Part shown: positions 1 through 16,136 of the stretch, piece by piece
How the letters are laid out: each line of letters starts with the position of its first letter
Position numbering within the stretch: position 1 is the stretch's first letter
Source: a virus
Direction: 5' to 3' (one strand)
DNA: 37,708 nucleotides
Virus record (IMG/VR): IMGVR_UViG_3300026255_000014
Span: 1 to 37,708 of that record
Notes under the pieces: generated by a model
The model's database searches: none
The model's input: only the letters and a program-made list of their open reading frames with translations
Told to the model about the DNA's origin: nothing
Translations under genes and position numbers: made by a program

Positions 1-312
1 CCGTTTTGTGGGAGGACACCGAATCCAGACTGGACTGATGAGAGCTACATAGAGTGTACAAATCGTAAATGTTCTCTTTATGGTTATGGAATGAGTACAG
101 GCGACTGGAACACCCGCCCAATTGAGGATGACCTTCGCAAGCGCATTGCCGAGTTGGAGGCGCTTGTTAATGTGTCGGAAGGTCTTTACGAGCGTATCTA
201 TGAGCAAGCAGCCCGCATTGCCGAGCTGGAGGCGGAGATTGTCCAACTTACCGCTCACGATGCTACAGAGCGGCAAGATGATAAGTGGATACCGGAGGTG
301 CAGGATGTGTAA
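1..312 (+). CDS. Lar-like zinc-ribbon protein, 5' truncated by window edge; duplicate copy of 37306..37638
   Basis: ORF track 91..312 translation is identical to the C-terminal part of 37306..37638; the frame is open back to position 1. Confidence 0.5.
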   Translation, partial: PFCGRTPNPDWTDESYIECTNRKCSLYGYGMSTGDWNTRPIEDDLRKRIAELEALVNVSEGLYERIYEQAARIAELEAEIVQLTAHDATERQDDKWIPEVQDV

Positions 313-382
313 CTTTTTCAGTTTTGTAACAGACCCAGTGAATCACCCAGCGGAGTATTACTACTTCGACTGGGAATATCGC
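1..382. repeat. Terminal redundancy, left copy; identical to 37327..37708
   Basis: Direct comparison of the first and last 382 nt of the window shows identity; implies a unit genome of about 37,326 bp. Confidence 0.9.
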
Positions 383-1069
383 AAGGCGCACCTAAACGAC
401 GATGGAGTGGACAGCCATTCGCATATCTGTGCATACTACCTCCTCAACGAGGATAGATGTAACAAATATGAGTTCAATCCGCTGACTGGAAGATTTGATA
501 TTGACCAAATCAACTCGGAGCGTGATGATTCAAATGCTGCAGAAAAGTGGGCGAAACGGCAGGACTTCAAAGAGATTGTCGAGACACTTATTATCAAGCC
601 GATTGTCAAACCGTTTGAGTTGCCAAAGGTAGAACAAGTGACAGATGAACAAATTGGCTGGCTGAAGGAGTGGGCTTCGGTCAGGGATTTGGTCGGGGCT
701 TCGGTCTGGGCTTTGGTCGGGGATTCGGTCAGGGATTCGGTCTGGGCTTTGGTCGGGGTTTCGGTCAGGGATTTGGTCTTGGATTCGGTCAGGGATTTGG
801 TCGGGGCTTCGGTCTGGGCTTCGGTCAGGGCTTCGGTCAGGGATTTGGTCGGGGCTTCGGTCTGGGCTTCGGTCAGGGATTCGGTCTGGGCTTCGGTCTG
901 GGCATATATCAGCAGTTTTTTCGCCATCAACTACAAATACAACTTTTCGTCTGTAGCAAATCTTTGGAACGCAGGGCTTGTACCCTCATTTGACGGTGAG
1001 ACATGGCGGTTGCATAGCAGCGAGAATGCGGATGTGGTTTACGAGTGGACGCCGGAGGTGCAGGAATGA
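305..1069 (+). CDS. Hypothetical protein with internal tetrapeptide tandem-repeat array and C-terminal WTPEVQE tail
   Basis: Same frame as ORF 122..1069; likely start ATG 305 sits 5 nt after GGAGGTG and overlaps the upstream stop. Ends in the conserved junction CCGGAGGTGCAGGAATGA. Frame assignment through the repeat is ambiguous. Confidence 0.5.
   Translation: MCNFFSFVTDPVNHPAEYYYFDWEYRKAHLNDDGVDSHSHICAYYLLNEDRCNKYEFNPLTGRFDIDQINSERDDSNAAEKWAKRQDFKEIVETLIIKPIVKPFELPKVEQVTDEQIGWLKEWASVRDLVGASVWALVGDSVRDSVWALVGVSVRDLVLDSVRDLVGASVWASVRASVRDLVGASVWASVRDSVWASVWAYISSFFAINYKYNFSSVANLWNAGLVPSFDGETWRLHSSENADVVYEWTPEVQE
672..899. repeat. 19 tandem copies of a 12-bp unit GGGNTTYGGTCN
   Basis: Read directly from sequence. 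No stop codons in any forward frame, which is why ORFs 122..1069, 670..993 and antisense 436..930 all cross it. Confidence 0.9.
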
Positions 1070-1395
1070 ACACGCTTAAACCCTGCCCGTTTTGTGGGAG
1101 GACACCGAATCCAGACTGGACTGATGAGAGCTACATAGAGTGTACAAATCGTAAATGTTCTCTTTATGGTTATGGAATGAGTACAGGCGACTGGAACACC
1201 CGCCCAATTGAGGATGACCTTCGCAAGCGCATTGCCGAGTTGGAGGCGCTTGTTAATGTGTCGGAAGGTCTTTACGAGCGTATCTATGAGCAAGCAGCCC
1301 GCATTGCCGAGCTGGAGGCGGAGATTGTCCAACTTACCGCTGATAGCACAGACGAGCGGAAAGATGATAAATGGATACCGGAGGTGCAGGAATGA
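1066..1395 (+). CDS. Lar-family-like zinc-ribbon protein (putative restriction alleviation), paralog B
   Basis: N-terminus MNTLKPCPFCG...C..RKC is a CxxC/CxxC zinc ribbon resembling Lar family proteins, followed by a coiled coil. Near-identical to 37306..37638 except the last ~12 codons. ATG 1066 overlaps the upstream stop (ATGA). Confidence 0.6.
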   Translation: MNTLKPCPFCGRTPNPDWTDESYIECTNRKCSLYGYGMSTGDWNTRPIEDDLRKRIAELEALVNVSEGLYERIYEQAARIAELEAEIVQLTADSTDERKDDKWIPEVQE

Positions 1396-1670
1396 TACCC
1401 AAAATTTCCAAAATTGTTAGCTGTGTTTGCGGATGTCATTTGGTCAAATTTGAGAAATGGACGGACGATGAAGGTGCGTGGATGATGATCTATGAGAACT
1501 CTTTTTACTCGAAACAGGGTGGAAGAATCAGGTCATATCTGAAACGGCTATGGTCAGCAATTCGAGGAAAAGAATATTTGCTGATGGAAATCAGCATGTC
1601 AGACGAGGATACTGTTGGGCTAAGAAATGCACTAATCGAGGCTACAACACCGCCGGAGGAAATCCAATGA
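1392..1670 (+). CDS. Hypothetical small cysteine-containing protein
   Basis: ORF track 1371..1670 with internal ATG 1392 overlapping the upstream stop; contains CVCGC. Confidence 0.5.
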   Translation: MIPKISKIVSCVCGCHLVKFEKWTDDEGAWMMIYENSFYSKQGGRIRSYLKRLWSAIRGKEYLLMEISMSDEDTVGLRNALIEATTPPEEIQ

Positions 1671-2014
1671 ACCGGACATACGAGGAGTGGGTTGAGAAGG
1701 TGACGGACAGCAGCGCGGACATTGCGCTCGCGGACATGCTGGCGGACTGGCAGGCGGACATCATCCGGCGAATGAAGGCTGAGCACGCGCTGAATAAGCG
1801 CATTGCCGAGCTTGAGGCGGAAATTGACCAACTTACCGCTGATAGCACAGACGAGCGGAAAGATGATAAGTTACCTGAGCGGGAAGTGTGTGAAGCCTGT
1901 GGGGGCGATGGCACATTGCTTTTAGTAGACAACTATAAAGGGCAAGCAACTGCAACTGTGGATTGTCCGTATTGCAACGGCACTGGACGTGTAAACAAGG
2001 AGTGTGAGAAATGA
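1667..2014 (+). CDS. Hypothetical protein with coiled coil and DnaJ-type CxxCxGxG zinc finger
   Basis: Translation contains CEACGGDG and CPYCNGTG; the coiled-coil segment RIAELEAEIDQLTADSTDERKDDK is shared with the Lar paralog at 1066..1395. ATG 1667 overlaps the upstream stop. Confidence 0.55.
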   Translation: MNRTYEEWVEKVTDSSADIALADMLADWQADIIRRMKAEHALNKRIAELEAEIDQLTADSTDERKDDKLPEREVCEACGGDGTLLLVDNYKGQATATVDCPYCNGTGRVNKECEK

Positions 2015-2271
2015 GCGAACAAAAACATCCGGATGATATGACGCGTGAGGAGTTGATAACCCTCGTGTTTGCAATGAGCTGGGCGGCGTTGGATTTAGCA
2101 CAACACTTGGATTTTACAACAAAAATGCTGAAAGAAGAATATCGAAAAGAAGCTTACAAAAAAGCGACACGAATGGCATATGAACTTGTTTTTCTTTGGG
2201 AAGTAGAACCAGATGAGAATAAAAATTCGGGGATACTTATTTTTGGTGAAAATGGATTGGAGCACGGGTGA
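2011..2271 (+). CDS. Hypothetical protein
   Basis: ORF track; ATGA overlap with upstream gene. Confidence 0.5.
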   Translation: MSEQKHPDDMTREELITLVFAMSWAALDLAQHLDFTTKMLKEEYRKEAYKKATRMAYELVFLWEVEPDENKNSGILIFGENGLEHG

Positions 2272-2585
2272 GCAAGTCAGCGCTTGAAGCAGAGTTAGCC
2301 TTGCAGATCAAGGCGTTGGGCTTGCCAGAGCCGATTCGCGAATACCAGGCAATCAAGGGGCGCAAGTTCCGCTTTGACTTCGCTTGGCTTGAGCACAGGT
2401 TGCTGGTGGAAGTGAACGGCGGCACTTACACGAAGGGTGCTCACTCTACAGGTCGGGGCATTGCGCGAGACTACGAGAAGGCGAACCTGGCTACGCTTGA
2501 CGGCTGGCGCGTGCTGATGTTTGACGGCAAGGCGGTGAAGTCGGGTGTAGCGGTTGAAGTGATTAGACAGGCGTTGGAGGCGTGA
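2268..2585 (+). CDS. Putative PD-(D/E)xK-type endonuclease (DUF559/Vsr-like motif pattern)
   Basis: GTG start overlapping the upstream stop; pattern FRFDFAW...LLVEVNGG...H...RD...L...GW.VLMF recalled from DUF559-like nuclease domains. Confidence 0.45.
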   Translation: MSKSALEAELALQIKALGLPEPIREYQAIKGRKFRFDFAWLEHRLLVEVNGGTYTKGAHSTGRGIARDYEKANLATLDGWRVLMFDGKAVKSGVAVEVIRQALEA

Positions 2586-2586
2586 G

Positions 2587-2793
2587 ATGGGATTTTGGGA
2601 AGAGTTGTTTTATGTCATGAAAATAGGCACGGTGGTTACCGTGTGTGGGCTGTTGGCAAGTTTGCCGATAGCGTTTATAGTGCACCTCGCGATTGAAAGA
2701 GGGTCATGGTTGTTAGGTGTTCTGGCGTTCTTTGTACTTATAGCGATTGCGAGTATAGCGGTTGTTATCCAAGAACGGTTGGAGGCTGAATGA
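2587..2793 (+). CDS. Small membrane protein (two predicted TM helices)
   Basis: Hydrophobic segments VVTVCGLLASLPIAFIV and LLGVLAFFVLIAIASIAVV. Confidence 0.5.
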   Translation: MGFWEELFYVMKIGTVVTVCGLLASLPIAFIVHLAIERGSWLLGVLAFFVLIAIASIAVVIQERLEAE

Positions 2794-2993
2794 ACCTGAT
2801 TGATTTCCTAAGCGAAGAGGACGCGGAAAAGCGGATTGAGGTGCAAGAGCGAATTGACGATCTTAGTCGCATAGAGAGAGCGATGCTGCATTTGTGGGTG
2901 GAAGGGTACACCCAGGCAGAGATTGCGCACATGTTTGGTTACTCGCAAGCCAGAATAAGCCAAATACTCAATGCGATTTATAAAAGCTGCTGA
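2790..2993 (+). CDS. Putative HTH transcriptional regulator (sigma-70 region 4-like)
   Basis: C-terminal YTQAEIAHMFGYSQARISQIL resembles a sigma region 4 / LuxR-type helix-turn-helix. Confidence 0.45.
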   Translation: MNLIDFLSEEDAEKRIEVQERIDDLSRIERAMLHLWVEGYTQAEIAHMFGYSQARISQILNAIYKSC

Positions 2994-3021
2994 AAAGTGG
3001 CTGTAGTATATAGAGACCATT

Positions 3022-3225
3022 GTGGAAACTAAACGTTGTGTTTGTGGAAAAGTTATAACGAGCCAATTTGATCTTTGCAACAAGTGTCAAGCAGAATACG
3101 GGCTTGACCGTTCTAAGTGGGATGATTGGCTTATTTTCATGGTTGCCGACTTGAAGCGAGAGCGTCGCCAACAAGCAATCATTGACGAACGCGAAATCCC
3201 GTTTTCAGAATTAGGAATTTATTAA
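3022..3225 (+). CDS. Small zinc-ribbon protein
   Basis: GTG start; CVCG...CNKC motif. Confidence 0.45.
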   Translation: METKRCVCGKVITSQFDLCNKCQAEYGLDRSKWDDWLIFMVADLKRERRQQAIIDEREIPFSELGIY

Positions 3226-3238
3226 CTCGGAGGCTTGA

Positions 3239-3571
3239 ATGGAATTTGACGTAACACTTTTAGGAATCGTAATCGGAATGATGGTACTGGCTAACCGCTT
3301 GGTGGCAATGCTCATTACTCCGCTGTGGGATAAGTACGGCTGGGACAAATTCTGGCTGGCTTATCCGGCCTGGATTCTATCGGGCGTGTTCGTGTGGCTG
3401 ACTGAAGTCAACCTATTCGCCGCGTTTATCCCGAACGCGCTTATCGGTCAAATTCTGACTGCCATTGTTGCAGGGGGCGGGTCAAATTTGCTCCACGACC
3501 TAACTGACAAGCCATCCAATCTGATTGCCGTGTTTGATGCGCTTGAAGATTACGAGGACGCTAACGGATGA
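3239..3571 (+). CDS. Membrane protein, possible holin
   Basis: 110 aa with multiple hydrophobic helices and an acidic C-terminus; holin assignment is an inference from size and topology only. Confidence 0.4.
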   Translation: MEFDVTLLGIVIGMMVLANRLVAMLITPLWDKYGWDKFWLAYPAWILSGVFVWLTEVNLFAAFIPNALIGQILTAIVAGGGSNLLHDLTDKPSNLIAVFDALEDYEDANG

Positions 3572-3996
3572 GCGAGAACGTCTGGGTCGCAATCATAGCA
3601 GCGGTGCTGGGCGGAGGCGGCTTAGGCGCGGCTATTGTGAATGCGCTTGCTAACCGCAAGAAAATCCAGGCGGACTGTGTAGCAACGCTATCATCCGCAT
3701 ACGAAACGAGGATAAACGCTCTCAATAAGCGGGCGGATGAGTTGGCGGCGAAGGTGGACGTCTTAGAGGCGCAAGTCTGTGGCTTGCGTTCTGCATTGTC
3801 AGACAGGGAAGCAATGATTGTGAATTTGCAGCAGGAAAATGTTGATTTGCAGGCGCAAGTGGACAAGTTGAGCAAGGTGGTCAACAACAAGGATAAGCGT
3901 ATTCGGGAATTAGAGCGACAGGTCGCTGACCTGACCACGCGTCTTAATGCGATGAATGGTGGAAGCGGTGAGGCTTGGCTCGGTGGTACTGATTGA
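3568..3996 (+). CDS. Membrane-anchored coiled-coil protein
   Basis: N-terminal TM segment WVAIIAAVLGGGGLGAAIV followed by a long heptad-rich region. Confidence 0.5.
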   Translation: MSENVWVAIIAAVLGGGGLGAAIVNALANRKKIQADCVATLSSAYETRINALNKRADELAAKVDVLEAQVCGLRSALSDREAMIVNLQQENVDLQAQVDKLSKVVNNKDKRIRELERQVADLTTRLNAMNGGSGEAWLGGTD

Positions 3997-4059
3997 CTTC
4001 AAGGGCGGACGTGAGTGCCTGTGGACGTACTCTCGCTTACTTGAAAAGACGAGGATTAT

Positions 4060-4233
4060 TTGGAAACGATCAAATTTGATGCAGTAGTTTATAAATTACA
4101 GACATTGGCTGACGGTGGAATCAGAATCACGCTTGATATGAGCGAGACCTCGATTCCTCAAATGGCAATGTTAGCAGAAACCAAACGACAGGGTTTGGCT
4201 CTTTCGTTTGAAGCGAAGGCGAGCGGCAGTTAG
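4060..4233 (+). CDS. Possible small ORF (57 aa, TTG start)
   Basis: Hand translation of otherwise empty DNA between 3996 and 4237; no motif support. Confidence 0.2.
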   Translation: METIKFDAVVYKLQTLADGGIRITLDMSETSIPQMAMLAETKRQGLALSFEAKASGS

Positions 4234-4236
4234 TTT

Positions 4237-4584
4237 ATGGCTTATGCGCCAGCAAGACAATGTGTTGTGCCAGGATGTCCGAATCTTGTGACAGAGCCTG
4301 GTGTTAGCCGTTGTCCAGAACATCAAAAACAATACAAAAAAGAGTTGACAAGACCGCGTGATGTCAAATACACGAGTCAACGATGGCGCAAGACCTCGAA
4401 GGTGTTTTTGAGTCGCAATCCAATTTGTGAACGTTGTGGTGAGCCGAGTGAGATCGCACACCACATTATTCGTAAGCGTGATGACGGGGCAGACGACTTC
4501 GACAATCTGGAAGCACTTTGCCGAAAGTGTCATGAAGCCGAACATCATGCAAGCGGTGAAAGGTGGGGTAGGCGTGCGAGGTAG
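4237..4584 (+). CDS. HNH homing-type endonuclease
   Basis: CxxC...CxxC plus HH..RKRDDG...N...LC..CH arrangement typical of the HNH fold; canonical position just upstream of the terminase small subunit. Confidence 0.8.
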   Translation: MAYAPARQCVVPGCPNLVTEPGVSRCPEHQKQYKKELTRPRDVKYTSQRWRKTSKVFLSRNPICERCGEPSEIAHHIIRKRDDGADDFDNLEALCRKCHEAEHHASGERWGRRAR

Positions 4585-5071
4585 AACGCCATTGCCAGAT
4601 GCTTTGAAAGAAGCACAGGGAACGCTGAAGAAGAGCCGAGTAAATGACTCTCAGGCTCGTTTTGACGTACCTAAAGACTCACCGAAACCGCCGACAACGC
4701 TCAATCTCTATGGCAAGCGGTTGTGGAAAGAAATGCTGCCAAAGTTGGTTGAAACAGGTCTTTATACCGAAGGTGATCACCAGGCGTTTGAATTGCTTTG
4801 CATGGCTTATGGTGATCTGATTCAGGCACGCAAAGACCTTAAAGAGTCGGGTACGATTGTTATCACAGACAAGGGCACGGTTTATCAGCACCCTAACGTT
4901 GGGATCGCAAACCAGGCTTGGAATCGGGTGAAACTGATGTTGGGGCAGTTTGGGCTGACACCAGCAGAGCGGACACGAGTAAAAGCACGCTCACCCGAAG
5001 AGAAAAGGGGCAGTTTGGCAGAATCGTTGTTTGCTGCTGCACGTGAAAAGGTTGAGGGTGAGACTGAGTGA
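4574..5071 (+). CDS. terS: Terminase small subunit (P27-family-like)
   Basis: Motif GQFGLTPAERTRVKA and N-terminal RGRTPLP resemble P27-family TerS. Start uncertain: GTG 4574 follows an AGGTGGGG SD; ATG 4547 and 4532 are in-frame alternatives. Confidence 0.7.
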   Translation: MRGRTPLPDALKEAQGTLKKSRVNDSQARFDVPKDSPKPPTTLNLYGKRLWKEMLPKLVETGLYTEGDHQAFELLCMAYGDLIQARKDLKESGTIVITDKGTVYQHPNVGIANQAWNRVKLMLGQFGLTPAERTRVKARSPEEKRGSLAESLFAAAREKVEGETE

Positions 5072-6375
5072 GTGCAAATCTGTATTTAGGTGACTGTCTG
5101 GAAGTCTTATCAACGCTTGAAGCGGATAGCATTGACACCTGCATCACTGACCCGCCTTACGAGTTAGGTTTCATGGGTAAGAAGTGGGATTCAAGCGGCA
5201 TTGCGTTCCAGCCTGAAACTTGGCAAGCCGTATTCAGGGTGCTGAAACCAGGTGCAATTCTGCTTGCCTTCGGCGGCACTCGCACCTATCACCGCATTGC
5301 TTGCGCTATTGAGGACGCTGGCTTTGAAATCCGTGACACTATCGCTTGGGTATACGGGAGCGGATTCCCTAAAAGTTACGACATAAGTAAGGGAATTGAC
5401 AAACAAGCTGGAGCTGAAAGGGAAATAGTAGGCTACAAGGAAACATCAACTTATCCAGATAGCGATGGTGTTGCTCATTACAAAAACAGGCAACAAAGCA
5501 ATGGTTCTCAAGTCAATACAGGAGGTATGCCAGAAATCACCGCGCCCTCCACCCCCGAAGCGCAACTCTGGGATGGCTGGGGCACGGCGTTGAAGCCTGC
5601 CTTTGAGCCGATAGTTGTTGCGATGAAGCCGATTGACGGCACGTTTGTCAACAACGCGCTCACTTGGGGCGTGGCTGGCTTGTGGATTGACGGGGGTAGG
5701 GTGGGGACGTCAAAAAACGTTCCTGCATCACCAAGCGATAAAGGCACTCTGCAATGTAAAGGTTTGGGCGGTGGATGGGATAGAAGCGGAATGAATCCGA
5801 ACATTGGTCGCTTCCCTGCCAACTTGATTCACGACGGCTCGGATGAGGTGGTGAGTGGGTTTCCGAATACTACGAGCGGCAAGGTTGCGGCTGGAACTAT
5901 GCGAGGCTTGAAAAGCAATCACAATGTGGCATACGCAGACATCGCCGCCGGAACTGAATTGACTGGCTACGGCGACTCTGGCTCAGCCGCGCGCTTTTTC
6001 TACTGTGCGAAAGCCAGCCGAAGCGAGCGCAACGCTGGGCTGGAGGGGATGGAAGAAAAGGTCGGCGGTGGAATGAAGGGCACGGAAGACCAAACGCTTT
6101 TGACTGGCTCTGGAAACATCCGCAACAATAAAATGCAAAACCACCATCCCACCGTCAAGCCAATCGAACTGATGCGCTACCTTGTTCGGCTTACCAAAAC
6201 GCCAACAGGCGGGGTGGTACTTGACCCGTTCATGGGGTCTGGCACGACTGGCATTGCTTGCGTGTTGGAAGGACGCGAGTTTATCGGAATTGAGCGGGAA
6301 GCGGAGTATGTCGAGATTGCAGAAAAGCGGATTGCGCATTACAGGTTGCCGATATTGGAAGAAGTGATCGAGTGA
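5068..6375 (+). CDS. DNA methyltransferase (N6-adenine/N4-cytosine, beta-class order)
   Basis: N-terminal DPPY (ITDPPYELGF) and C-terminal AdoMet motif LDPFMGSGTTGIA. Confidence 0.85.
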   Translation: MSANLYLGDCLEVLSTLEADSIDTCITDPPYELGFMGKKWDSSGIAFQPETWQAVFRVLKPGAILLAFGGTRTYHRIACAIEDAGFEIRDTIAWVYGSGFPKSYDISKGIDKQAGAEREIVGYKETSTYPDSDGVAHYKNRQQSNGSQVNTGGMPEITAPSTPEAQLWDGWGTALKPAFEPIVVAMKPIDGTFVNNALTWGVAGLWIDGGRVGTSKNVPASPSDKGTLQCKGLGGGWDRSGMNPNIGRFPANLIHDGSDEVVSGFPNTTSGKVAAGTMRGLKSNHNVAYADIAAGTELTGYGDSGSAARFFYCAKASRSERNAGLEGMEEKVGGGMKGTEDQTLLTGSGNIRNNKMQNHHPTVKPIELMRYLVRLTKTPTGGVVLDPFMGSGTTGIACVLEGREFIGIEREAEYVEIAEKRIAHYRLPILEEVIE

Positions 6376-8966
6376 AAAAGTACGATCCCTGGAATTGCGA
6401 CCTTGATAAGTACGAATTTGACCCTGTGGCTGGGCAGGTTGCAGTCGACTTTATTGAAAATTATATTACCCATGTCAAAGGGGAGTTAGGCGGCAAGCCT
6501 TTTTTGCTTTTGGAGTGGGAAAAGGATTTTGTAAGAAACCTTTTCGGTTGGAAAGAAAAGGAAACAGGTTATCGGCGTTACCGTGAGGCGTTTGTATTTG
6601 TGGCACGGAAAAATGGCAAAGCATTAGAAGTCAATACTCCGATTCTGACTACTACAGGTTGGAAGAAACACGGCGATTTAGTCCCTGGAGACTTTGTTTT
6701 TTCTCCTGATGGCGTACCCGCAAAGGTTATCTATTCTACTCCTCATTATGAGGGGAATTGTTATTTTGTGGATTTCTCAGGCGATGAAGCAATTATCGCT
6801 CACGAAAATCACGAATGGAAAACTAACCGCACCTGGTATACAGGAAAGCCCAAATGGATAGAAGGTGAAAAGCCTTTGGTTACCACTAAGCGGATTGCGG
6901 AAACTCTACGATGTGGGAAACGCCAAGACCTTGTGCATTCTGTGGATGTTGCGAAACCGATACAGTTTGAGCCAAAAGAATACACAATACCCCCGTATGT
7001 TTTAGGCGTTTGGCTTGGCGATGGCGACTCTGACAGTTGCAGGATCACGATTGCAGAACCTGAAATTGTCCAGAAGCTATCTGATTATGGTTATCCAGCC
7101 GAATATAGATCAAGATACCGACACCTTGTTGGACGGGGGAAGTTTCAAAAGCAACTGCGTGAAAAGGGCTTACTGGGCAATAAGCATATACCACAAGAAT
7201 ACTTGCTTGGTTCAGTTGAGCAAAGGATCGACCTCTTGCGCGGATTGATGGACACAGACGGTTATGTGTCTTCGGCTGGACAATGCGGAATTGCATTAAC
7301 CGACGGTAATTTGTTTCGCCAAGTTGTCGAATTAATTACAGGCTTGGGATTAAAGCCTCGCGTAATGATTGATCGTGCTCAGTTAAATGGGGTTGACTGC
7401 GGAGTTAGATATAGAGTCCACTTCTATGCCTATCAAGACACGCCAATAGCATATATTGAGCGAAAAGCCAAACGGCAAAAAGAAACTCCAAAAACAAGGC
7501 GGCGCAGCCAGACTCGGATGATTTCAAATGTTACGCCCGCAGGTAAGCAAACAGTCAACTGCATCACAGTCGAAGGCGGGATGTATCTCGCAGGAAAGCA
7601 ACTTATCCCAACTCACAACTCACCTCTTGGGGCTGCCATCGCGCTTTATCTGTTGATTGTAGACAATGAGCCTGGTGCAGAGTTGATCTCTGTAGCAGCA
7701 GACCGAGACCAGGCACGGGCGATTTTTGACACGGCTCGTTTTATGGTAAAGCAAAACGCCGCCCTGGACGAATTGGTTAGTGCATATCGAAATGCGATTG
7801 TCGCTAAGCAAGGGGCTTCAGTTTACAAAGTTGTTTCATCGGATGCTGGCACTAAGCATGGTGGAAACTTACATGCTGCGCTTTTTGACGAGTTGCACGC
7901 TCAGAAGAACCGAGACCTTTACGATGTTGTGCAAACCAGTTTTGGCGCGCGCCGTCAACCACTGCTGATTTCTTTTAGTACGGCAGGGTTTGATCGTGAG
8001 TCGATCTGCTATGAAGTTTACTCAATGGCAAAGCAGATTTCTGAGGGCATAATCCAGCGAGATTGGTTTTACCCCGTAATATACGAGGCATCGCCAGAAG
8101 ACGATTGGACAAGCGAAGATACGTGGAAGAAAGCCAATCCGAGTTTGGGACACTCGATCAAGATTGATTACCTGCAGAAGAATTATGAAAAGGCTCTATC
8201 AAGCCCGCAGTTCCAAAACACTTTCAAGCGTTTGTATCTCAATATGTGGACATCGGCAGAAACACGCTGGCTTGATATGCAAAACTGGGACAAATGCGGT
8301 GAGCAACCGATTGACATGGGACTGCTTGAAGGGGCTGAATGTTACGGCGGTCTTGACCTTGCGACAGTTTCTGACATTGCTGCTTTTGTACTGGATTTCC
8401 CGAATGAAAGCGGTGAAGAGGAATTGCACACCTGGCTTCCGACCTTGTTCTGTCCAGAGTCAAAGTTGACCGACCCAGGTTTCATTGACCGCGACATTTA
8501 CAGGGCTTGGGCTGACCAGGGCTATTTGATTGCAACGCCTGGAAACGTGATTGACTACGAGTACATCATTGCTGAAATTGAGCGATTAGGTGAACTTTAC
8601 AACATTAAAGAGATCGCATTTGACCGTTGGGGTGCTGCACAGATTTCACAAACGCTTACCAATATGGGCTTTACTTTGGTTGGTTTTGGTCAAGGGTACG
8701 TGAGCATGTCACCACCCACAAAAGAAGTTGAGCGGTTGATATTACAAGGCAGGGTGAGACATGGAAACCACCCTGTAATGCGTTGGATGGCGGATAACGT
8801 TATGGTTACGACTGACCCTGCAGGGAATATCAAGCCAGACAAGAAGAAAAGCAGGCAGAAGATTGACGGCGTGGTTGCGGCAATCATGGCAACCGATAGG
8901 GCAATTAGAAATTCTGTAGGTCGCAAGGACTCTGTTTACGAAAAAAGAGGGTTGGTTGTTCTATGA
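6372..8966 (+). CDS. terL: Terminase large subunit, interrupted by an in-frame intein
   Basis: 864 aa; removing residues 84..416 yields the P-loop ARKNGKS and a Walker B-like LLIVDNE with a C-terminal nuclease-like domain. GTG start overlaps the upstream stop. Confidence 0.9.
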   Translation: MKKYDPWNCDLDKYEFDPVAGQVAVDFIENYITHVKGELGGKPFLLLEWEKDFVRNLFGWKEKETGYRRYREAFVFVARKNGKALEVNTPILTTTGWKKHGDLVPGDFVFSPDGVPAKVIYSTPHYEGNCYFVDFSGDEAIIAHENHEWKTNRTWYTGKPKWIEGEKPLVTTKRIAETLRCGKRQDLVHSVDVAKPIQFEPKEYTIPPYVLGVWLGDGDSDSCRITIAEPEIVQKLSDYGYPAEYRSRYRHLVGRGKFQKQLREKGLLGNKHIPQEYLLGSVEQRIDLLRGLMDTDGYVSSAGQCGIALTDGNLFRQVVELITGLGLKPRVMIDRAQLNGVDCGVRYRVHFYAYQDTPIAYIERKAKRQKETPKTRRRSQTRMISNVTPAGKQTVNCITVEGGMYLAGKQLIPTHNSPLGAAIALYLLIVDNEPGAELISVAADRDQARAIFDTARFMVKQNAALDELVSAYRNAIVAKQGASVYKVVSSDAGTKHGGNLHAALFDELHAQKNRDLYDVVQTSFGARRQPLLISFSTAGFDRESICYEVYSMAKQISEGIIQRDWFYPVIYEASPEDDWTSEDTWKKANPSLGHSIKIDYLQKNYEKALSSPQFQNTFKRLYLNMWTSAETRWLDMQNWDKCGEQPIDMGLLEGAECYGGLDLATVSDIAAFVLDFPNESGEEELHTWLPTLFCPESKLTDPGFIDRDIYRAWADQGYLIATPGNVIDYEYIIAEIERLGELYNIKEIAFDRWGAAQISQTLTNMGFTLVGFGQGYVSMSPPTKEVERLILQGRVRHGNHPVMRWMADNVMVTTDPAGNIKPDKKKSRQKIDGVVAAIMATDRAIRNSVGRKDSVYEKRGLVVL
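6621..7619 (+). mobile_element. Intein (333 aa) with LAGLIDADG homing endonuclease domain inside the TerL Walker A motif
   Basis: Begins ALEVNTPILT, contains LGVWLGDGDS and LLRGLMDTDGYV, ends ...LIPTHN followed by Ser; splicing restores ARKNGK|SPLG. Confidence 0.8.
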
Positions 8967-9172
8967 GTTTATTTGGATGGTTTGCAGAATTGAGACCAGT
9001 TATTGTCAACACAAAGTTTGGCAAGGATTTCAGGGGCGTTGTTTGGAAGAAAACAAACGACTGCATCGTTCTGAAAAACGCAGAGTGGTTGTCGCCTGAT
9101 GGGGCGAAAAAACTGGATGGTGAAACAATCATCTTCATCAAAGAAATCGAATTTATACAGGCGGTCTCATGA
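8963..9172 (+). CDS. Hypothetical protein
   Basis: ORF track; ATGA overlaps with both TerL and portal. Confidence 0.5.
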   Translation: MSLFGWFAELRPVIVNTKFGKDFRGVVWKKTNDCIVLKNAEWLSPDGAKKLDGETIIFIKEIEFIQAVS

Positions 9173-11115
9173 CAACGATTATTTCAGAAACTAACCTAAT
9201 AACGATGCCAGCGAATTGGTGGACAAACGCAAACAACATCACGCTTTCATCGGTGCGATCCGATTACAACTTCGATTATTTGGCGATGTACAGGAATCAC
9301 ATGAACGTGAGGATTTGCGTTGATTTCCTGGCTCGAAATATCGCTCACCTGGGGCTGCACGTTTACACGCGAAAAGAAGACAATGACAGAGAGCGATTGC
9401 GAGACCACAGGGCGGTACAAATTCTGAAACAACCGCTGCCGGCAAAGTTTAAGGTGACACAGTTCCAACTGGTTGAATCGGCAGTCGCAGACATGCTGAT
9501 CAGCGGTAATGGTTATTTACTCAAACACAGAAACGGTGAGGGTGAGATCATCGCGCTTCAGCGTGTGCCTTATATGCTTATGAGTGTCAAGGGCGAGTTA
9601 GTTCCTACGAAATACAAAATTGGCTATATCGAGAAAGAGTACAAGCCAGAAGATATTATCCATTTTCGATTTTACAACCCTGAGAACTCTACCATCGGCG
9701 TTTCACCGCTTGAAGGTTTGCGCGAAGTGTTGGCTGAAGAATGGGAAAAGTCGAAGTACAGTTCTGGTTTCTGGCGGAATGCCGCTCGTATTTCTGGTGT
9801 GATCGAAAGACCGCTGGAAGCAAAAGAAATGAGCGAAGCAGCAGCACGCAACTTCCGTCAGCAATGGCAGGAAATGTATGCAGGTGAAGACAACAGCGGC
9901 AAGACTGCTTTGTTGGAAGAGGGCATGGTTTTCAAACCGATGTCGTTCAGCCCGAAAGAAACTGAGTATATCGAGAGCAGAAAACTAAACCGAGAAGAAT
10001 GCGCGAGAGCATATCACATCCCCCCGCCAATGGTCGGAATTTTAGATCGCAGTACGTTCTCGAACATTACCGAGTTGCACAAGTCGCTTTACATGGATGT
10101 GCTTAGTCCAATGTGTGCCAGACTTGAGGACGATTGGGATTTGCAGTATTTGAGTGAGTTCAAAGATTTGAAGGGCGCATACACTGAGTTCAATATTGAC
10201 GAAAAACTACAGTCTGATTTCAGTATGCAACTTGAGTCACTACGGCAGTCTGTGGGCGTGCCTTACATGACACCGAACGAAGGTCGTGCGATTCTGAACC
10301 TTCCACGTTTGAAGAACCCCCTGGCTGACACCCTGGTTACCCCTCTCAATATGGCAACCCCTGAAATGGTTATGCGACAACAACAGAACAAAAGTGAAAT
10401 GCCAATAATTGAGACTAAGGCATCGGCTGAGTCTATCATGCCAGAATATCCCGACCTGGACAAAGACTTTGGTGAGAAATGGCACAAGTTGATGGTGAAC
10501 GTTTTTACACGCCAGAGAGACGCAGTGTTACCAAAAGCGAAGATGGACAAGTTGGATGTGCTTTGGGACAAAGAGCGTTGGGACAGGGAAGTCGCTGAGG
10601 ACTTTCTGAAACTTGCGGAAGAAACCGCCTGGGCTTATGCGGATGCTTTTGCAGGGCAGTTAGGCGCAGAGTACAAGCGCGAGTGGATGGAAAAATGGTT
10701 GCAGGAAAACTCCAGGATTGCCGCTGAATATATCAACGCCAGCACCTACGACCAGCTCGCAAAGGCGATGCAGGGTGAAAATCCAGTTGACGCAATCAAA
10801 GAGGTGTTTGCGTCAGCATTGGCGGTAAGAGCGGTGCAATTGGCTGAGGATCGCCGCGCGATGGTGGAAAGTTATGTTGAAGCAAAGATTGCAGATGCGG
10901 TTGATTCCGTTATCGGGAAGATTTGGACAGTTAGAAGCAACAACCCCCGCCCAGAACACGAGAAGATGAATGGCGAGTTTATTGAGAAAAGGGAAGTGTT
11001 TTCAAACGGACTACAGTACCCACGAAGTTACAAGGGTAGTGCTAAAGACAATGCCAACTGTAAATGTAAGGTGATGTGGGTCAGAAAACCTGTAGACACC
11101 ACGCCTTTGAGGTGA
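9169..11115 (+). CDS. Portal protein with C-terminal MuF-like (minor head protein) domain
   Basis: Central region resembles HK97-family portals; C-terminus carries RPEHEKMNGEF, a MuF-like motif. Confidence 0.75.
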   Translation: MTTIISETNLITMPANWWTNANNITLSSVRSDYNFDYLAMYRNHMNVRICVDFLARNIAHLGLHVYTRKEDNDRERLRDHRAVQILKQPLPAKFKVTQFQLVESAVADMLISGNGYLLKHRNGEGEIIALQRVPYMLMSVKGELVPTKYKIGYIEKEYKPEDIIHFRFYNPENSTIGVSPLEGLREVLAEEWEKSKYSSGFWRNAARISGVIERPLEAKEMSEAAARNFRQQWQEMYAGEDNSGKTALLEEGMVFKPMSFSPKETEYIESRKLNREECARAYHIPPPMVGILDRSTFSNITELHKSLYMDVLSPMCARLEDDWDLQYLSEFKDLKGAYTEFNIDEKLQSDFSMQLESLRQSVGVPYMTPNEGRAILNLPRLKNPLADTLVTPLNMATPEMVMRQQQNKSEMPIIETKASAESIMPEYPDLDKDFGEKWHKLMVNVFTRQRDAVLPKAKMDKLDVLWDKERWDREVAEDFLKLAEETAWAYADAFAGQLGAEYKREWMEKWLQENSRIAAEYINASTYDQLAKAMQGENPVDAIKEVFASALAVRAVQLAEDRRAMVESYVEAKIADAVDSVIGKIWTVRSNNPRPEHEKMNGEFIEKREVFSNGLQYPRSYKGSAKDNANCKCKVMWVRKPVDTTPLR

Positions 11116-11126
11116 AAGGAATAATT

Positions 11127-11735
11127 ATGAAAATGGAAAAGAAATCATTTGAAACCGAACTTGAGTTCAAAGAAAACGCCGATGAGACTGGTCAATTCAA
11201 GGCAGTGTTCAGTTGGTTTGATGTAATTGACAAACACGGTGATGTTACCTTGCCAGGGGCGTTTGAGGAAGGGGCGAAAGTCAAGATTGCTTCCTGGGGG
11301 CATCGGTGGGAAAACCTGCCTGTTGGTCGCGGTGAAGTCCACCAGGATGAAGAGAAAGCCTGGGTGGACGGTAAGTTTTTCCTTGATACTGAAGCGGGTC
11401 TTGAAACCTACAAGACCGTCAAAAATCTTGGTGAGTTACAAGAGTGGTCGTATGGATTCGAGACCATTGACTCATCCGAGGATAAGAAAGACGGACGGAC
11501 AGTGCGAGTGTTGAAGAAACTCAAAACTTTCGAGGTGTCGCCTGTATTTATTGGTGCAGGGAACGACACTCAAACTTTAGCCATTAAGAGCGAGGGCGAA
11601 GAGTCTGAGCCAGAAGTGGAGCAGGAAGTCAAAACTGAATCAGAGACCGTGGAAGTCGGGAATGAGAGCGGCGTTGATCCTGCTGACATGAAATTACTAA
11701 TCGAAATAATTGCTTTGGAGGCAAAACATGAATAA
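11127..11735 (+). CDS. Prohead protease (HK97 family)
   Basis: Pattern DVIDKHGDVTLPGAF...SWGH...SYGF...FEVSPV. Start ATG 11127 chosen inside ORF 11076..11735. Confidence 0.75.
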   Translation: MKMEKKSFETELEFKENADETGQFKAVFSWFDVIDKHGDVTLPGAFEEGAKVKIASWGHRWENLPVGRGEVHQDEEKAWVDGKFFLDTEAGLETYKTVKNLGELQEWSYGFETIDSSEDKKDGRTVRVLKKLKTFEVSPVFIGAGNDTQTLAIKSEGEESEPEVEQEVKTESETVEVGNESGVDPADMKLLIEIIALEAKHE

Positions 11736-13020
11736 CGAAAAATTTATGAATCTTTTGGGCGATGCCCGTGAGATTGTTGAAAAGGCTCTTGTTGAGGGTC
11801 GCCCTATGACAGAGGACGAGCGCAATAAGTCCATGAACATGGTAGAAGAAGCCAAACAAGGTCTTGATGACGTTGCTTTGGAACGCAAGATCGCTGAACT
11901 TCAGGCTGCTGCCGCAAAGGGCAAAGAAGAAGAAACCCAAGAGGAAGTAAAAGGCAGTATGGGTGAACGCTTTGCTCAGAGCAAGGCATACAAAGCCTGG
12001 ATGAAACAGGTTGCTCCCAACGGTCACATTCCTGAGAGTGCGAAGGGCATCAATTCCCCCGCTTTCCAGGTCGACATGCCGTTTGAAAAGAAAGCCGTTC
12101 TTACTGGCGCATCTGCCACTTCTGGCGGCGCGTTCATTCAGAACGACGACACTGGCATTTACGTTCCTATGGGACGCAAACCGCTGAAGTTGCGCGACCT
12201 GATCAGCGTCCGTAGTACCAATAGCGACATGGTTGAGTTTGTTCGCCAGACTGCACAGGTTACCCAGGCGGCTGGCGTTGCTGAAGCGACTTCTGCTGCC
12301 GCCCCTACAGTTGTCACAACTGCGACTGGTAATCCAACGCTGGTCTATACCAGCACTGTGACTAACAACGCAGGTGGCGGTTACAAACCCGAAGGCGCAA
12401 TGGCTTTTGAAAAAGTTACCGCTCCCGTGGAAACCGTTGCAGTATGGATTCCTGTAACCAAACGCGCTCTGGCTGACGCAGCTCAATTGCGCGGAATTAT
12501 TGACCAGGAATTGCGCGACTCTCTCATGGATGAGATCGAAACCAACATCCTGTTTGGGCAAGCCACTCCCGATTTTGTCGGTTTGGCTGAAACGCCGAAT
12601 ATTTTGAGCCAGGCTTTTAGCACCAACATTCTGACTACTGCCCGTAAAGCCATCACTAATTTGGCGACAAACGGTTTGGAAGCCAGCCCCACCGCATTCG
12701 TGGTTGCACCTGCCGATTGGGAAGCGGTTGAGTTAGCTCTCTTTGCTGCCGCACCGTACCTGCCTTATCAGCAATCCATGTGGCGTATTCCTGTGGTTGA
12801 GTCACAGTATCTCACCGCTGGTACTGCCTATTTGGGCAACTGGAAACAGGCGGTTATGTGGGATCGCCAGCAGGTCACTATCAGCGTAAGCGATAGCCAT
12901 GCTGATTTCTTCATCCGCAACCTGGTTGCAGTGCTTGCTGAGGCTCGTGCAGCTTTCGGTGTGCTGAAACCAAAGTCCTTTGTTGAGATCGCTACCGCCG
13001 CAAGCGGCAGCCCATCTTAG
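11728..13020 (+). CDS. Major capsid protein (HK97 fold) with N-terminal delta/scaffold-like coiled coil
   Basis: ATG 11728 preceded by GGAGG; ~100-aa charged coiled-coil N-terminus followed by a capsid-like body; followed by a strong terminator. Confidence 0.85.
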   Translation: MNNEKFMNLLGDAREIVEKALVEGRPMTEDERNKSMNMVEEAKQGLDDVALERKIAELQAAAAKGKEEETQEEVKGSMGERFAQSKAYKAWMKQVAPNGHIPESAKGINSPAFQVDMPFEKKAVLTGASATSGGAFIQNDDTGIYVPMGRKPLKLRDLISVRSTNSDMVEFVRQTAQVTQAAGVAEATSAAAPTVVTTATGNPTLVYTSTVTNNAGGGYKPEGAMAFEKVTAPVETVAVWIPVTKRALADAAQLRGIIDQELRDSLMDEIETNILFGQATPDFVGLAETPNILSQAFSTNILTTARKAITNLATNGLEASPTAFVVAPADWEAVELALFAAAPYLPYQQSMWRIPVVESQYLTAGTAYLGNWKQAVMWDRQQVTISVSDSHADFFIRNLVAVLAEARAAFGVLKPKSFVEIATAASGSPS

Positions 13021-13037
13021 GCTTAGTTGATTGATTA

Positions 13038-13063
13038 GGGCGGGGGCGATTTCGCCCCCGCCC
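13038..13063 (+). terminator. GC-rich hairpin downstream of the capsid gene
   Basis: GGGCGGGGGCG-ATTT-CGCCCCCGCCC perfect 11-bp stem, with a T-run at 13074..13078. Confidence 0.6.
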
Positions 13064-13078
13064 TGAGAGGAAGTTTTT

Positions 13079-13285
13079 ATGGTTGAAAAAGACGTAATGG
13101 TGATCGTCCCGATTGGCGAGTACGAAGGCATCAAGATGTGGCGGTCTGAGGCTGAAAAGCAAGGGCTGAAATACAAGGTGATCGGCAAAGAGTATGTCCC
13201 TGAGATCGAGGACAAAATGGTCGAGCCTGTGGAAGATAAGGCTCTGCCGAAAAAGACCACAAGACGGAAAACTACGAAGAAGTAG
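13079..13285 (+). CDS. Hypothetical protein (basic C-terminus)
   Basis: ORF track; RBS GAGAGGAAG upstream. Confidence 0.5.
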   Translation: MVEKDVMVIVPIGEYEGIKMWRSEAEKQGLKYKVIGKEYVPEIEDKMVEPVEDKALPKKTTRRKTTKK

Positions 13286-13292
13286 GTGAGGA

Positions 13293-13889
13293 ATGGGATT
13301 TTGCTCAATTGACGACATCAACACTTTTTTAGGCACAACAATATTGCCAGATGACGCGCAAGCACTTCTGGCGATTGATGAGGCAACCGCAGTAATTCAA
13401 AATTATTGCAATCAGAAAATTGAGCAAGTCTCAGACGATACTATCCTGCTTGACGGCACTGGATCGACCAAATTGTTTTTGCCTGAGTTGCCTGTTGTTT
13501 CGATTACAAGCGTTGAAGTGGATGGGGTACTCTTAGACCCGACTTACTATGCTTTGGCTGAAAACGGGGTGCTCTGGCGGAAGTACGGGGTGTGGACAGT
13601 TGGTGCTCGAAACATCAGTATCACTTACACCCACGGTCACGATGTAATACCAGAAGAAGTCCGAGGGGTTTGTTACCGATCAGCGGCACGGTTATACCAG
13701 GCGCAATTGAAAGCGAGACGACAGGATTTTGTGTCGGGGTTGCAATCTGTGAGTGTCGGGGACTGGTCTGAAACCTACGAAACCGCAGGTGGATCATCGG
13801 GCGAGTCTGACAAAGGCGTATCTGCTGCACGGACTTTGTTGATGAGCGAGAAGGATATTCTGAACCATTACCGCTATAAGAGGATTTGA
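13293..13889 (+). CDS. Head-tail connector protein (gp6-like)
   Basis: N-terminal pattern resembles gp6-like connector proteins; position immediately after the capsid gene. Confidence 0.55.
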   Translation: MGFCSIDDINTFLGTTILPDDAQALLAIDEATAVIQNYCNQKIEQVSDDTILLDGTGSTKLFLPELPVVSITSVEVDGVLLDPTYYALAENGVLWRKYGVWTVGARNISITYTHGHDVIPEEVRGVCYRSAARLYQAQLKARRQDFVSGLQSVSVGDWSETYETAGGSSGESDKGVSAARTLLMSEKDILNHYRYKRI

Positions 13890-14260
13890 TGTCTAAGTTT
13901 CCGCACACAATGACCTGGTACGCAAAAACTACCACCGCAAACGTGTTTACACGCAGGGTGGTGACAGAAGTGATGTGGCAAGCGCAAAAGGTCGCTAACA
14001 CCAAAAAATCAGGTTTGCTTGATTCGGACAAAGCGATTGTCTATGTGCCGTTTGTTACATCGGATGGCACAGACCGCTCAGCGGAATTGACTTTCAAGAT
14101 CGGCGATTACTTAGTGCCTGGTGAAGCGAGCGAGACAATGGTGGACGGCACATACACGCCTACAAAATTACTTGCAGCCTATCCGCGCACAATTCAGATC
14201 AGGACTGTGGACTGGAAAGACTACGGCGCATTACAGCACGTCCAGATTGGCGGTAAGTAA
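13889..14260 (+). CDS. Hypothetical head-tail joining protein
   Basis: Position only; ATG 13889 overlaps upstream stop (TGATG). Confidence 0.45.
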   Translation: MSKFPHTMTWYAKTTTANVFTRRVVTEVMWQAQKVANTKKSGLLDSDKAIVYVPFVTSDGTDRSAELTFKIGDYLVPGEASETMVDGTYTPTKLLAAYPRTIQIRTVDWKDYGALQHVQIGGK

Positions 14261-14670
14261 TGGATAACGTCTATGTTACCCAACCCCAGGACAGAATCAT
14301 CAAGACGCGGAACGGCGATATGCTGGTCAAGTGGAATCCTAATTTTGCAAGGCAGCGAAACACCCGATATAACCGCGCTCAAAGGTTTGTAGATTCAAGA
14401 GTGCTTTATTACTCTGAGAACTATATCCCTGTTGACACAGGCGAGCTGCTATTGTCAGGACGCAGGGAAACAAAGATTGGATCGGGCATGGTTATATGGA
14501 AAGCCAGGGGGCGGCCTTACACGAGACCACAATACTACGGATGGCGCAGGGCGCATAAAAGCAACTTACCGAAAATCCATCACGGAAATTACTGGTTCAG
14601 GAAAGTCAAAGCCCAGCATGGCAAACAGATTGTTAACACGGCTAAGGGCATGGCAGGTGGAGGTAGCTGA
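14260..14670 (+). CDS. HK97 gp10-like tail/neck component
   Basis: Motif PVDTGELLLSG resembles the HK97 gp10 family signature. Confidence 0.55.
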   Translation: MDNVYVTQPQDRIIKTRNGDMLVKWNPNFARQRNTRYNRAQRFVDSRVLYYSENYIPVDTGELLLSGRRETKIGSGMVIWKARGRPYTRPQYYGWRRAHKSNLPKIHHGNYWFRKVKAQHGKQIVNTAKGMAGGGS

Positions 14671-14672
14671 CT

Positions 14673-15125: not shown

Positions 15126-15129
15126 CAAC

Positions 15130-15606: not shown

Positions 15607-15623
15607 TTAGAAAGGAATAAATA

Positions 15624-16133: not shown

Positions 16134-16136
16134 TTG

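What the first reader, a model, noticed from the sequence alone, without database searches (positions are those of the whole stretch)
1..382. 382-bp identity between the window ends defines a complete ~37.3 kb genome
Positions 1..382 equal 37327..37708, so the window holds one complete genome plus overlap. The overlap falls inside the cassette array, which makes a biological terminal repeat at this exact point less likely than linearisation of a circular or permuted assembly.
Basis: seen in the sequence. Interest (0 to 1): 0.45.

Follow-up and report, generated by a model that had tools for sequence, protein, structure and literature searches.

The report
Assembly overlap closing a phage genome
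The identical 382 bases at the two ends of the window are a leftover of assembling a circular-mapping 37,326-base phage genome, not a biological terminal repeat, so the finding is ordinary; it mainly shows that the genome is complete.

Summary
Observation confirmed. Positions 1-382 equal 37327-37708 exactly, 382 is the longest terminal overlap, and the unit is 37,326 bp.

Both window ends sit on points where an assembly graph would branch:
- Position 1 is the first base after the only SNP (T37326 / C1086) separating two paralogous Lar-like genes. Those genes then share a 255-bp exact block.
- Position 382 is the last base before a strain-variable patch that starts at 383.

Independent assemblies run straight through the junction. 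One of them, a 46,103-bp SPAdes contig, goes 1.235 times round with a period of exactly 37,326 bp, so its overlap is 8,777 bp rather than 382. The overlap begins inside one gene and ends inside the next.

The circle carries a full HK97-like siphovirus gene set. HNH endonuclease, P27-type TerS and HK97-type TerL predict cohesive-end (cos) packaging with physical ends elsewhere. The position of those ends is unresolved. The repeat-rich intergenic region at 32.03-32.14 kb is a weak candidate.

Low interest: the terminal repeat is an artefact. The phage itself is new but of a known kind.

The parts
1..382 (.). Left copy of the terminal overlap (the assembly walked this stretch twice)
   Evidence: exact identity with 37327-37708.
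37327..37708 (.). Right copy of the terminal overlap
   Evidence: The contig ends at 37708 (= 382), one base before the first strain-variable site, 383.
37327..37581 (+). 255-bp exact block shared by paralog A (and by the window start, 1-255) and paralog B; its first base is window position 1
   Evidence: 1087-1341 = 37327-37581, bounded by T37326/C1086 on the left and C37582/G1342 on the right.
1087..1341 (+). Internal copy of the 255-bp exact block (in paralog B)
37306..37638 (+). Paralog A: 110-aa zinc-ribbon plus coiled-coil protein (weak, below-cutoff Lar_restr_allev match). The overlap starts at its codon 8.
   Evidence: PF14354, E = 2.9e-4, below the curated cut-off.
1066..1395 (+). Paralog B: 109-aa near-duplicate of paralog A
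305..1069 (+). 254-aa gene with (A/D)SV(W/R) tetrapeptide repeats. The overlap ends 78 nt into it, and the strain-variable patch 383-454 lies in it.
4237..4584 (+). HNH endonuclease next to the terminase genes (a marker of HK97-type cos packaging)
   Evidence: PF01844, 2.4e-12; phrog_144, 6e-27.
4574..5071 (+). Terminase small subunit (Terminase_4 / P27 family). Its GTG start overlaps the end of the HNH gene.
   Evidence: PF05119, 4.2e-23; phrog_83, 2.2e-36.
6372..8966 (+). Terminase large subunit of HK97 type, interrupted by an intein
   Evidence: TerL_ATPase, TerL_nuclease, Hom_end; phrog_9, 1.3e-162; its only PDB match is 6Z6D, E = 2.6e-59, which I recognise as the HK97 TerL structure; the tool lists it only as 'Terminase large subunit'.
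32030..32143 (.). Weak candidate for the true physical end or cos region (alternatively an origin): (GGGTTCA)n, a G8 run and a CGCGC..GCGCGCGCG hairpin in the only large intergenic region
   Evidence: Contig Ga0209722_1002031 ends at 32143. The 35,755-bp relative starts at about 32138 and stops just before the repeats at its other end.

Best explanation
The 382-bp terminal identity is an assembly overlap. Reads from a phage genome that maps as a circle of 37,326 bp (circular or concatemeric replicative DNA, or cos ends joined in the cell) formed a cyclic path in the assembly graph. The contig was written out from one branch point to another after slightly more than one lap. It starts where two paralogous genes become identical: position 1 is the first base after the T/C SNP at 37326/1086. 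It stops where co-occurring strains diverge, the first variable site being 383. The duplicated 382 bp therefore exists only once per genome. The genome is complete. Its virion DNA is most likely unit-length with cohesive ends cut by an HK97-type TerL helped by the adjacent HNH endonuclease, at a site that is not the window ends. Shown: the exact overlap, the branch-point coincidences, independent contigs crossing the junction, the 37,326-bp period, and the gene content. Inferred: which assembler was used and how it behaved, cos packaging, and where the real ends are.
For:: exact 382-bp overlap, unit 37,326 bp; window position 1 is the first base of the 255-bp exact block shared by paralogs A and B, directly after their only upstream mismatch. 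A random or biological end would hit one of the four block boundaries with a chance of about 1e-4; in ENA NODE_1410 the first difference from the window after the junction is at 383, then 386, 388 and on to 454, so the window ends exactly at a strain branch. NODE_1410 (46,103 bp, 234x coverage) crosses 37326|1 at 99.75-99.96% identity and repeats 6,480 bp with 0 mismatches at a period of 37,326 bp, so the overlap length is specific to each assembly. JGI Ga0209723_1003711 (17,997 bp) and Ga0209510_1019510 (3,848 bp, 100% identical over 33880..401) also cross the junction; the overlap starts inside one gene and ends inside the next; a full gene set (HNH, TerS, TerL, portal, protease, HK97 capsid, connectors, tape measure, endolysin, Erf, replication initiator, SSB); the TerL's only PDB match is 6Z6D (2.6e-59), which I recognise from my own knowledge as the HK97 TerL; in HK97 the HNH protein GP74 promotes cos cleavage, and HNH-plus-terminase modules are tied to cos packaging. 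CheckV states that such terminal repeats often result from assembling short reads of a circular genome or of concatemers.
Against: The overlap length (382) is not one of the k-mer lengths that a plain circular de Bruijn contig leaves behind, so it needs the repeat-plus-strain-branch explanation. The assembly graph and reads of the source sample are not available, so the branch points are inferred from other samples. A genome with a true terminal redundancy somewhere would assemble the same way. No read-level evidence on virion ends exists here.
Confidence: 0.93

Rival explanations
1. The 382 bp is a genuine direct terminal repeat of the virion DNA (T7- or N4-like short DTR), present at both physical ends.
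For: Exact repeat at both contig ends. Its length is not a standard k-mer and lies in the range of known short DTRs (my own knowledge).
Against: It starts at codon 8 of one gene and ends 26 codons into the next. Both boundaries coincide to the base with a paralog SNP and a strain-variable site. Another assembly of the same phage has an 8,777-bp overlap placed elsewhere, with contig ends at unit 25010 and 33786. The TerL is HK97-type with an adjacent HNH gene, not a DTR-type terminase.
Confidence: 0.01
2. False circularisation. The contig is a fragment of a larger genome that happens to begin and end in two different copies of the repeated Lar-like gene, so the genome is not complete, or the cassette copy number is collapsed.
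For: The overlap lies in a repeated gene family with a third near-identical copy 1,086 bp away. A MEGAHIT contig lacks exactly window 1-1086, which shows that copy number in this array varies or is hard to assemble.
Against: The overlap extends 127 bp beyond the shared block into sequence specific to copy A. An independent assembly gives the same 37,326-bp period with 0 mismatches between passes. Every functional module expected of a tailed phage is present. Related long IMG/VR contigs, whose completeness was not checked, are 34.2-37.5 kb.
Confidence: 0.03
3. The assembly overlap is an artefact as above, but the virion DNA is circularly permuted and terminally redundant (headful packaging) rather than cos-ended.
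For: A circular-mapping assembly fits headful packaging equally well. No cos sequence was identified, and the HNH and terS genes overlap with no intergenic space between them.
Against: The HNH-TerS(P27)-TerL(HK97-like)-portal-protease-HK97 capsid module is the arrangement tied to cos cleavage. TerL relatives are numerous among Streptococcus, Lactococcus and Staphylococcus phages, groups that to my knowledge include classic cos phages.
Confidence: 0.15

Closest known systems
Metagenomic 'DTR contigs': terminal overlaps left by assemblers on circular-mapping viral genomes (CheckV, PMC8116208)
   Same: An exact repeat at contig start and end, complete gene content, a break point without biological meaning, and independent contigs of the same virus that are permuted relative to it.
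   Different: The overlap length is not the assembler's k. Both ends are fixed by an internal 255-bp paralog repeat and by a strain-variable patch, not by a random break.
HK97-like cos phages with a packaging-associated HNH endonuclease (HK97 gp74/gp1/gp2; lactococcal Skunavirus sk1; S. aureus cos phages)
   Same: Gene order HNH, TerS (Terminase_4), TerL (its only PDB match, 6Z6D at 2.6e-59, I recognise as the HK97 TerL), portal PF04860, protease, HK97-fold capsid.
   Different: No cos site or cohesive ends were demonstrated. HNH and terS overlap, so there is no intergenic cos between them. A DNA methylase gene sits between terS and terL, and an intein interrupts the TerL. The nearest TerL in the phage collection is only about 50% identical.
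Short direct terminal repeats of T7-like or N4-like phages
   Same: The size range only (a few hundred bp).
   Different: Those repeats have fixed ends (usually non-coding, to my knowledge) and go with a different terminase type. Here the boundaries lie inside genes and move between assemblies.

Membership tests
Assembly-derived terminal overlap of a circular-mapping genome (CheckV-type DTR contig) | Exact direct repeat of at least 20 bp at contig start and end | tested here: met
   382 bp, exact.
Assembly-derived terminal overlap of a circular-mapping genome (CheckV-type DTR contig) | Independent assemblies run through the junction and are permuted relative to this contig | tested here: met
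   NODE_1410 (46,103 bp), Ga0209723_1003711 (17,997 bp) and Ga0209510_1019510 (3,848 bp) cross 37326|1. NODE_1410's ends map to unit 25010 and 33786.
Assembly-derived terminal overlap of a circular-mapping genome (CheckV-type DTR contig) | Overlap length equals the assembler's k-mer length | tested here: not met
   382 is not a usual k (one search lists 55, 77, 99). The ends instead sit at a paralog SNP and at a strain-variable site. 382 = 255 + 127 was noted but not explained.
Assembly-derived terminal overlap of a circular-mapping genome (CheckV-type DTR contig) | The unit contains a complete viral gene set of the expected length | tested here: met
   Related long contigs, whose completeness was not checked, are 34.2-37.5 kb. 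The period of 37,326 bp was reproduced.
Assembly-derived terminal overlap of a circular-mapping genome (CheckV-type DTR contig) | Even read coverage across the overlap, and read pairs joining the contig ends | not testable with these tools
   No reads available.
Biological short direct terminal repeat (T7/N4-like) | Fixed repeat boundaries reproduced in independent genomes | tested here: not met
   other assemblies neither start nor end at 1 or 382, and one has an 8,777-bp overlap elsewhere.
Biological short direct terminal repeat (T7/N4-like) | Terminase of a DTR-generating type | tested here: not met
   the TerL matches Pfam TerL_ATPase and TerL_nuclease and phrog_9, and its only PDB match is 6Z6D (HK97 TerL by my own knowledge). 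An HNH gene sits beside terS.
Biological short direct terminal repeat (T7/N4-like) | Two-fold read coverage over the repeat, with read-start pile-ups at its borders | not testable with these tools
   No reads available.
HK97-like cos packaging with accessory HNH endonuclease | HNH endonuclease gene adjacent to the terminase genes | tested here: met
   HNH at 4237..4584 overlaps the terS start at 4574.
HK97-like cos packaging with accessory HNH endonuclease | TerL homologous to HK97 gp2; P27-type TerS; HK97-type portal, protease and capsid in order | tested here: met
   6Z6D, 2.6e-59; identified as HK97 TerL from my own knowledge; PF05119, PF04860, PF05065; protease phrog_80.
HK97-like cos packaging with accessory HNH endonuclease | A defined cos site giving single-stranded cohesive ends | not testable with these tools
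   Only indirect hints: contig breaks at 32138-32143. No conserved non-coding element was found next to terS.
Headful (pac) packaging with circular permutation | TerL related to those of known pac phages | tested here: inconclusive
   The only PDB match is 6Z6D (HK97 TerL by my own knowledge). No phylogeny against typed terminases was made.

The most novel reading that the evidence does not exclude
The real virion ends are cohesive ends in the G-rich repeat region at 32.03-32.14 kb, which holds (GGGTTCA)n, a G8 run and a GC hairpin. That region lies about 9.8 kb upstream of terS and just ahead of the early promoter. This would be an unusual placement for an HK97/HNH-type cos phage, where to my knowledge cos normally adjoins the terminase genes. 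The window ends would then mark only a recombination-prone cassette array, in which 255-292-bp direct repeats gain or lose a 1,086-bp two-gene unit.
Probability: 0.2. Interest if true: 0.3.

Novelty: not a real feature. Interest (0 to 1): 0.08.

Why it matters
It matters for bookkeeping. The window can be treated as one complete 37,326-bp genome, and positions 37327-37708 should be trimmed before gene counting, repeat analysis or comparison. Otherwise the Lar-like gene family appears to have three members instead of two. The case also shows that an overlap of non-k-mer length is not evidence for a biological terminal repeat, because internal repeats and strain branches can set both ends. The phage itself is an uncultivated HK97-like siphovirus recurrent in bioreactor and sludge metagenomes. 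It is new, but of a familiar kind.

Tried and rejected
- Megablast of 25 kb against 50,697 phage records found no match, so no reference genome with mapped ends exists.
- I tried to find the window's own contig and further junction-spanning contigs with exact patterns. IMG/VR and the metagenome collection gave only fragments.
- An exact search for GGGTTCAGGGTTCAG in IMG/VR returned more than 119 mostly unrelated hits and was useless.
- I looked for clustering of contig ends as a proxy for physical ends. Ends cluster at repeats and strain-variable regions (14.8-15.6 kb, 33.4-34.5 kb). Two ends at 4557 and 4570, near the terS start, are within chance expectation by a rough estimate of my own. 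The pair at 32138/32143 is suggestive but not significant by itself.
- I recovered both ends of the 35,755-bp relative. They flank the GC-rich repeat block and do not abut, so they fit either a coverage gap or true ends.
- The k-mer arithmetic (255 = 2x127+1; 382 = 255+127) was considered as proof of a k = 127 graph. It was not adopted, because both ends are explained without k and the graph is unavailable.
- GC skew shows no switch and is uninformative.
- No tRNAs were found.
- The region upstream of HNH/terS holds no notable repeats or palindromes.

Full report
**Observation.** Positions 1-382 are identical to 37327-37708. No longer terminal overlap exists, and the non-redundant unit is 37,326 bp. 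An exact 382-nt match cannot be chance.
- Window 1087-1341 equals 1-255 and 37327-37581 exactly (255 bp).
- Window 1050-1085 equals 37290-37325 (36 bp).
- The single mismatch C1086 / T37326 separates the two blocks.
- On the right, the copies diverge at 1342 / 37582.

These are two paralogous genes. Paralog A is 37306..37638 (110 aa) and paralog B is 1066..1395 (109 aa). Both have a weak, below-cutoff Lar_restr_allev zinc-ribbon match followed by a coiled coil. The overlap starts at codon 8 of paralog A. It ends 78 nt into the next gene, 305..1069, which encodes 254 aa with (A/D)SV(W/R) tetrapeptide repeats.

**What fixes the two ends.**
- Window position 1 is the first base after the T/C mismatch, that is, the first base at which paralogs A and B become indistinguishable.
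- I compared the window with an almost identical genome from another sample, ENA ERZ773285 NODE_1410, at 99.75-99.96% identity. The first difference after the junction is at position 383, followed by 386, 388, 394 and on to 454. The window therefore ends at the last base before a strain-variable patch.

A contig that starts where two paths merge and ends where two paths split is what a graph-based assembler produces. A biological terminus has no reason to coincide, to the base, with a synonymous paralog SNP on one side and a strain polymorphism on the other. The SNP at 1086 is itself polymorphic: JGI contig Ga0209723_1003711 has T there.

I also noted that 255 = 2x127+1 and 382 = 255+127, where 127 is to my knowledge the top k of the usual metaSPAdes series. 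The branch-point explanation does not need this, and I cannot test it without the graph.

**Independent assemblies.** Several contigs from other samples run through 37326|1 without interruption:

| Contig | Length | Coverage of the unit |
|---|---|---|
| IMG/VR 3300026311_000104 = Ga0209723_1003711 | 17,997 bp | 34185..37326 then 1..14855 |
| Ga0209510_1019510 | 3,848 bp | 33880..401, 100% identical |
| ENA NODE_1410 | 46,103 bp, 234x coverage | more than one full lap |

NODE_1410 contains more than one genome length. The same 6,480 bp appears twice with zero mismatches, at a spacing of exactly 37,326 bp. Its ends map to unit 25010 and 33786, so its overlap is 8,777 bp. The same phage therefore gives overlaps of 382 bp or 8.8 kb at different places, depending on the assembly. 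This rules out a fixed terminal repeat at the window ends and independently confirms the unit length.

CheckV's authors describe this origin of terminal repeats in metagenomic contigs (PMC8116208). COBRA's authors describe contig breaks at repeats and at within-population variation (PMC10914622).

**Completeness and packaging type.** All genes but perhaps one small one lie on the + strand. The circle encodes the following:

| Function | Coordinates |
|---|---|
| HNH endonuclease | 4237..4584 |
| TerS, Terminase_4/P27 family | 4574..5071 |
| N6/N4 DNA methylase | 5068..6375 |
| TerL | 6372..8966 |
| Portal | 9169..11115 |
| Prohead protease | 11076..11735 |
| HK97-fold capsid | 11710..13020 |
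| Connector and tail genes | between capsid and tape measure |
| Tape measure | 17175..19901 |
| Endolysin | 24058..25470 |
| Further methyltransferases | 28629..30185 and 34018..34980 |
| Exonuclease | 30189..31493 |
| Erf-type annealing protein | 33252..33953 |
| Replication initiator | 35453..36211 |
| SSB | within 36342..36746 |

Related long IMG/VR contigs, whose completeness I did not check, are 34.2-37.5 kb.

The TerL's only sequence match in the PDB is 6Z6D (E = 2.6e-59), which I recognise from my own knowledge as the HK97 large terminase. In HK97 the HNH protein GP74 promotes cleavage at cos (PMC9410871). HNH genes next to terminase genes are linked to cos cleavage in other phages as well (PMC12967558, citing Kala 2014 and Quiles-Puchalt 2014).

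My inference is that virion DNA is unit-length with cohesive ends, so the real ends are discrete and lie somewhere other than the window ends. Headful packaging is not excluded.

**Where the real ends might be (unresolved).** HNH and terS overlap, so there is no intergenic cos between them. The region upstream shows no notable repeats.

The only large non-coding stretch is 31714..32283. It contains:
- a terminator-like hairpin;
- AGTATTGTAA iterons;
- AT-rich palindromes;
- eight copies of GGGTTCA (32030-32090);
- a G8 run;
- a CGCGC..GCGCGCGCG hairpin;
- a near-consensus promoter at 32215-32242 that would start the early genes.

Two contigs from other samples break here. Ga0209722_1002031 ends at 32143. 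The 35,755-bp relative 3300029775_000010 starts at about 32138 and, at its other end, stops just before the G-rich repeats. This fits physical ends, but it also fits a coverage gap or a strain branch: L225 diverges at 32177. Nine of the ten contigs listed read through the region. I rate this site as a weak candidate, with a probability of about 0.2.

**Comparison with what is known.** As an object, the terminal identity belongs to the well-known class of assembler-made overlaps on circular-mapping viral contigs. The one atypical trait is its non-k length, which the internal repeat and the strain branch explain.

The phage belongs functionally to the HK97-like, HNH-assisted cos packaging group. 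The gene-level criteria are met, but cos itself is untested. No phage record matches at the nucleotide level, and the nearest TerL is about 50% identical, in phages assigned to Clostridia hosts. Relatives are common in bioreactor, digester and sludge assemblies. A 4.5-kb contig with a 95% identical portal is binned in an Anaerolineaceae MAG, which is a weak host hint.

**Verdict.** The repeat is not a biological feature. Trim 37327-37708 and treat the genome as a complete 37,326-bp unit whose physical termini are unknown but probably of cos type. Interest is low.

Noticed in passing
window 6372-8966 (intein about 6624-7619): The TerL carries an intein of about 332 aa in the Walker A loop (..ARKNGK | ALEVNTP...IPTHN | SPLGAA). 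It has Hom_end and LAGLIDADG matches and begins with Ala rather than Cys or Ser. Many close relatives (L009, L011, L015-L023) lack it; others (L007, L010, L028, L029) have it.
   Followed up: partly
window 5068-6375: An N6/N4 DNA methylase gene sits between terS and terL. In several relatives terS abuts terL directly. The genome carries at least three methyltransferase genes in all (also 28629-30185 and 34018-34980).
   Followed up: partly
window 36756-37708 and 1-2585: An array of small early genes is joined by a conserved 18-nt junction, CCGGAGGTGCAGGAATGA (..PEVQE stop overlapping the next ATG, with its own RBS), at 1051, 1377, 37106 and 37291. A RIAELEAE coiled-coil motif recurs in four genes. 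Relatives swap cassettes at unit 211/212, inside that motif.
   Followed up: partly
window 1-1086; L220 21283-21600: MEGAHIT contig k141_6156 (ERZ27268607) joins the sequence upstream of paralog A, through the 255-bp block, to the sequence downstream of paralog B. It therefore lacks exactly window 1-1086. This is either a natural gain or loss of a two-gene unit between direct repeats or a graph shortcut.
   Followed up: partly
window 637-948 (gene 305-1069): A 12-bp tandem repeat array of about 25 units encodes (A/D)SV(W/R) tetrapeptide repeats in a 254-aa protein with no Pfam or PHROG match.
   Followed up: no
window 31714-32283: The only large intergenic region. It holds a terminator hairpin, AGTATTGTAA iterons at 13-bp spacing, TATTATAATA twice, (GGGTTCA)x8, a G8 run, a GC hairpin and a near-consensus sigma-70 promoter at 32215-32242. 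A 62-aa minus-strand ORF lies at 31779-31967, and the 35.7-kb relative has several apparent minus-strand ORFs there, judged by eye from the sequence. Function (origin, operator or cos) is unknown.
   Followed up: partly
window 2309-2568: Otherwise identical genomes (JGI 3300026311, ENA NODE_1410) differ from the window by a dense cluster of substitutions confined to the DUF559/Vsr-like endonuclease gene 2268-2585. This looks like a local allele replacement.
   Followed up: no
L219 19548-20474 (ENA ERZ747220 NODE_1436): A variant that is 99.98% identical over unit 16033-34379 then diverges and carries a tyrosine integrase downstream of the Erf gene. Some members of this otherwise integrase-less lineage may therefore be temperate.
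   Followed up: no
window 15130-16133: Two adjacent paralogous genes (both phrog_3099, about 73% DNA identity) sit in the tail module. Many contigs from other samples break at 14.8-15.6 kb.
   Followed up: no
L234 (JAQVUC010000125.1): A 4.5-kb, low-coverage contig with a 95% identical portal is binned in an Anaerolineaceae MAG. This is the only host hint, and it is weak.
   Followed up: no
window 22066-22526 and 27329-28112: A 234-bp tandem duplication lies in the 351-aa tail fibre-like gene. Repeats with periods of 72 to 81 bp lie in the 797-aa gene, which has no family match.
   Followed up: no
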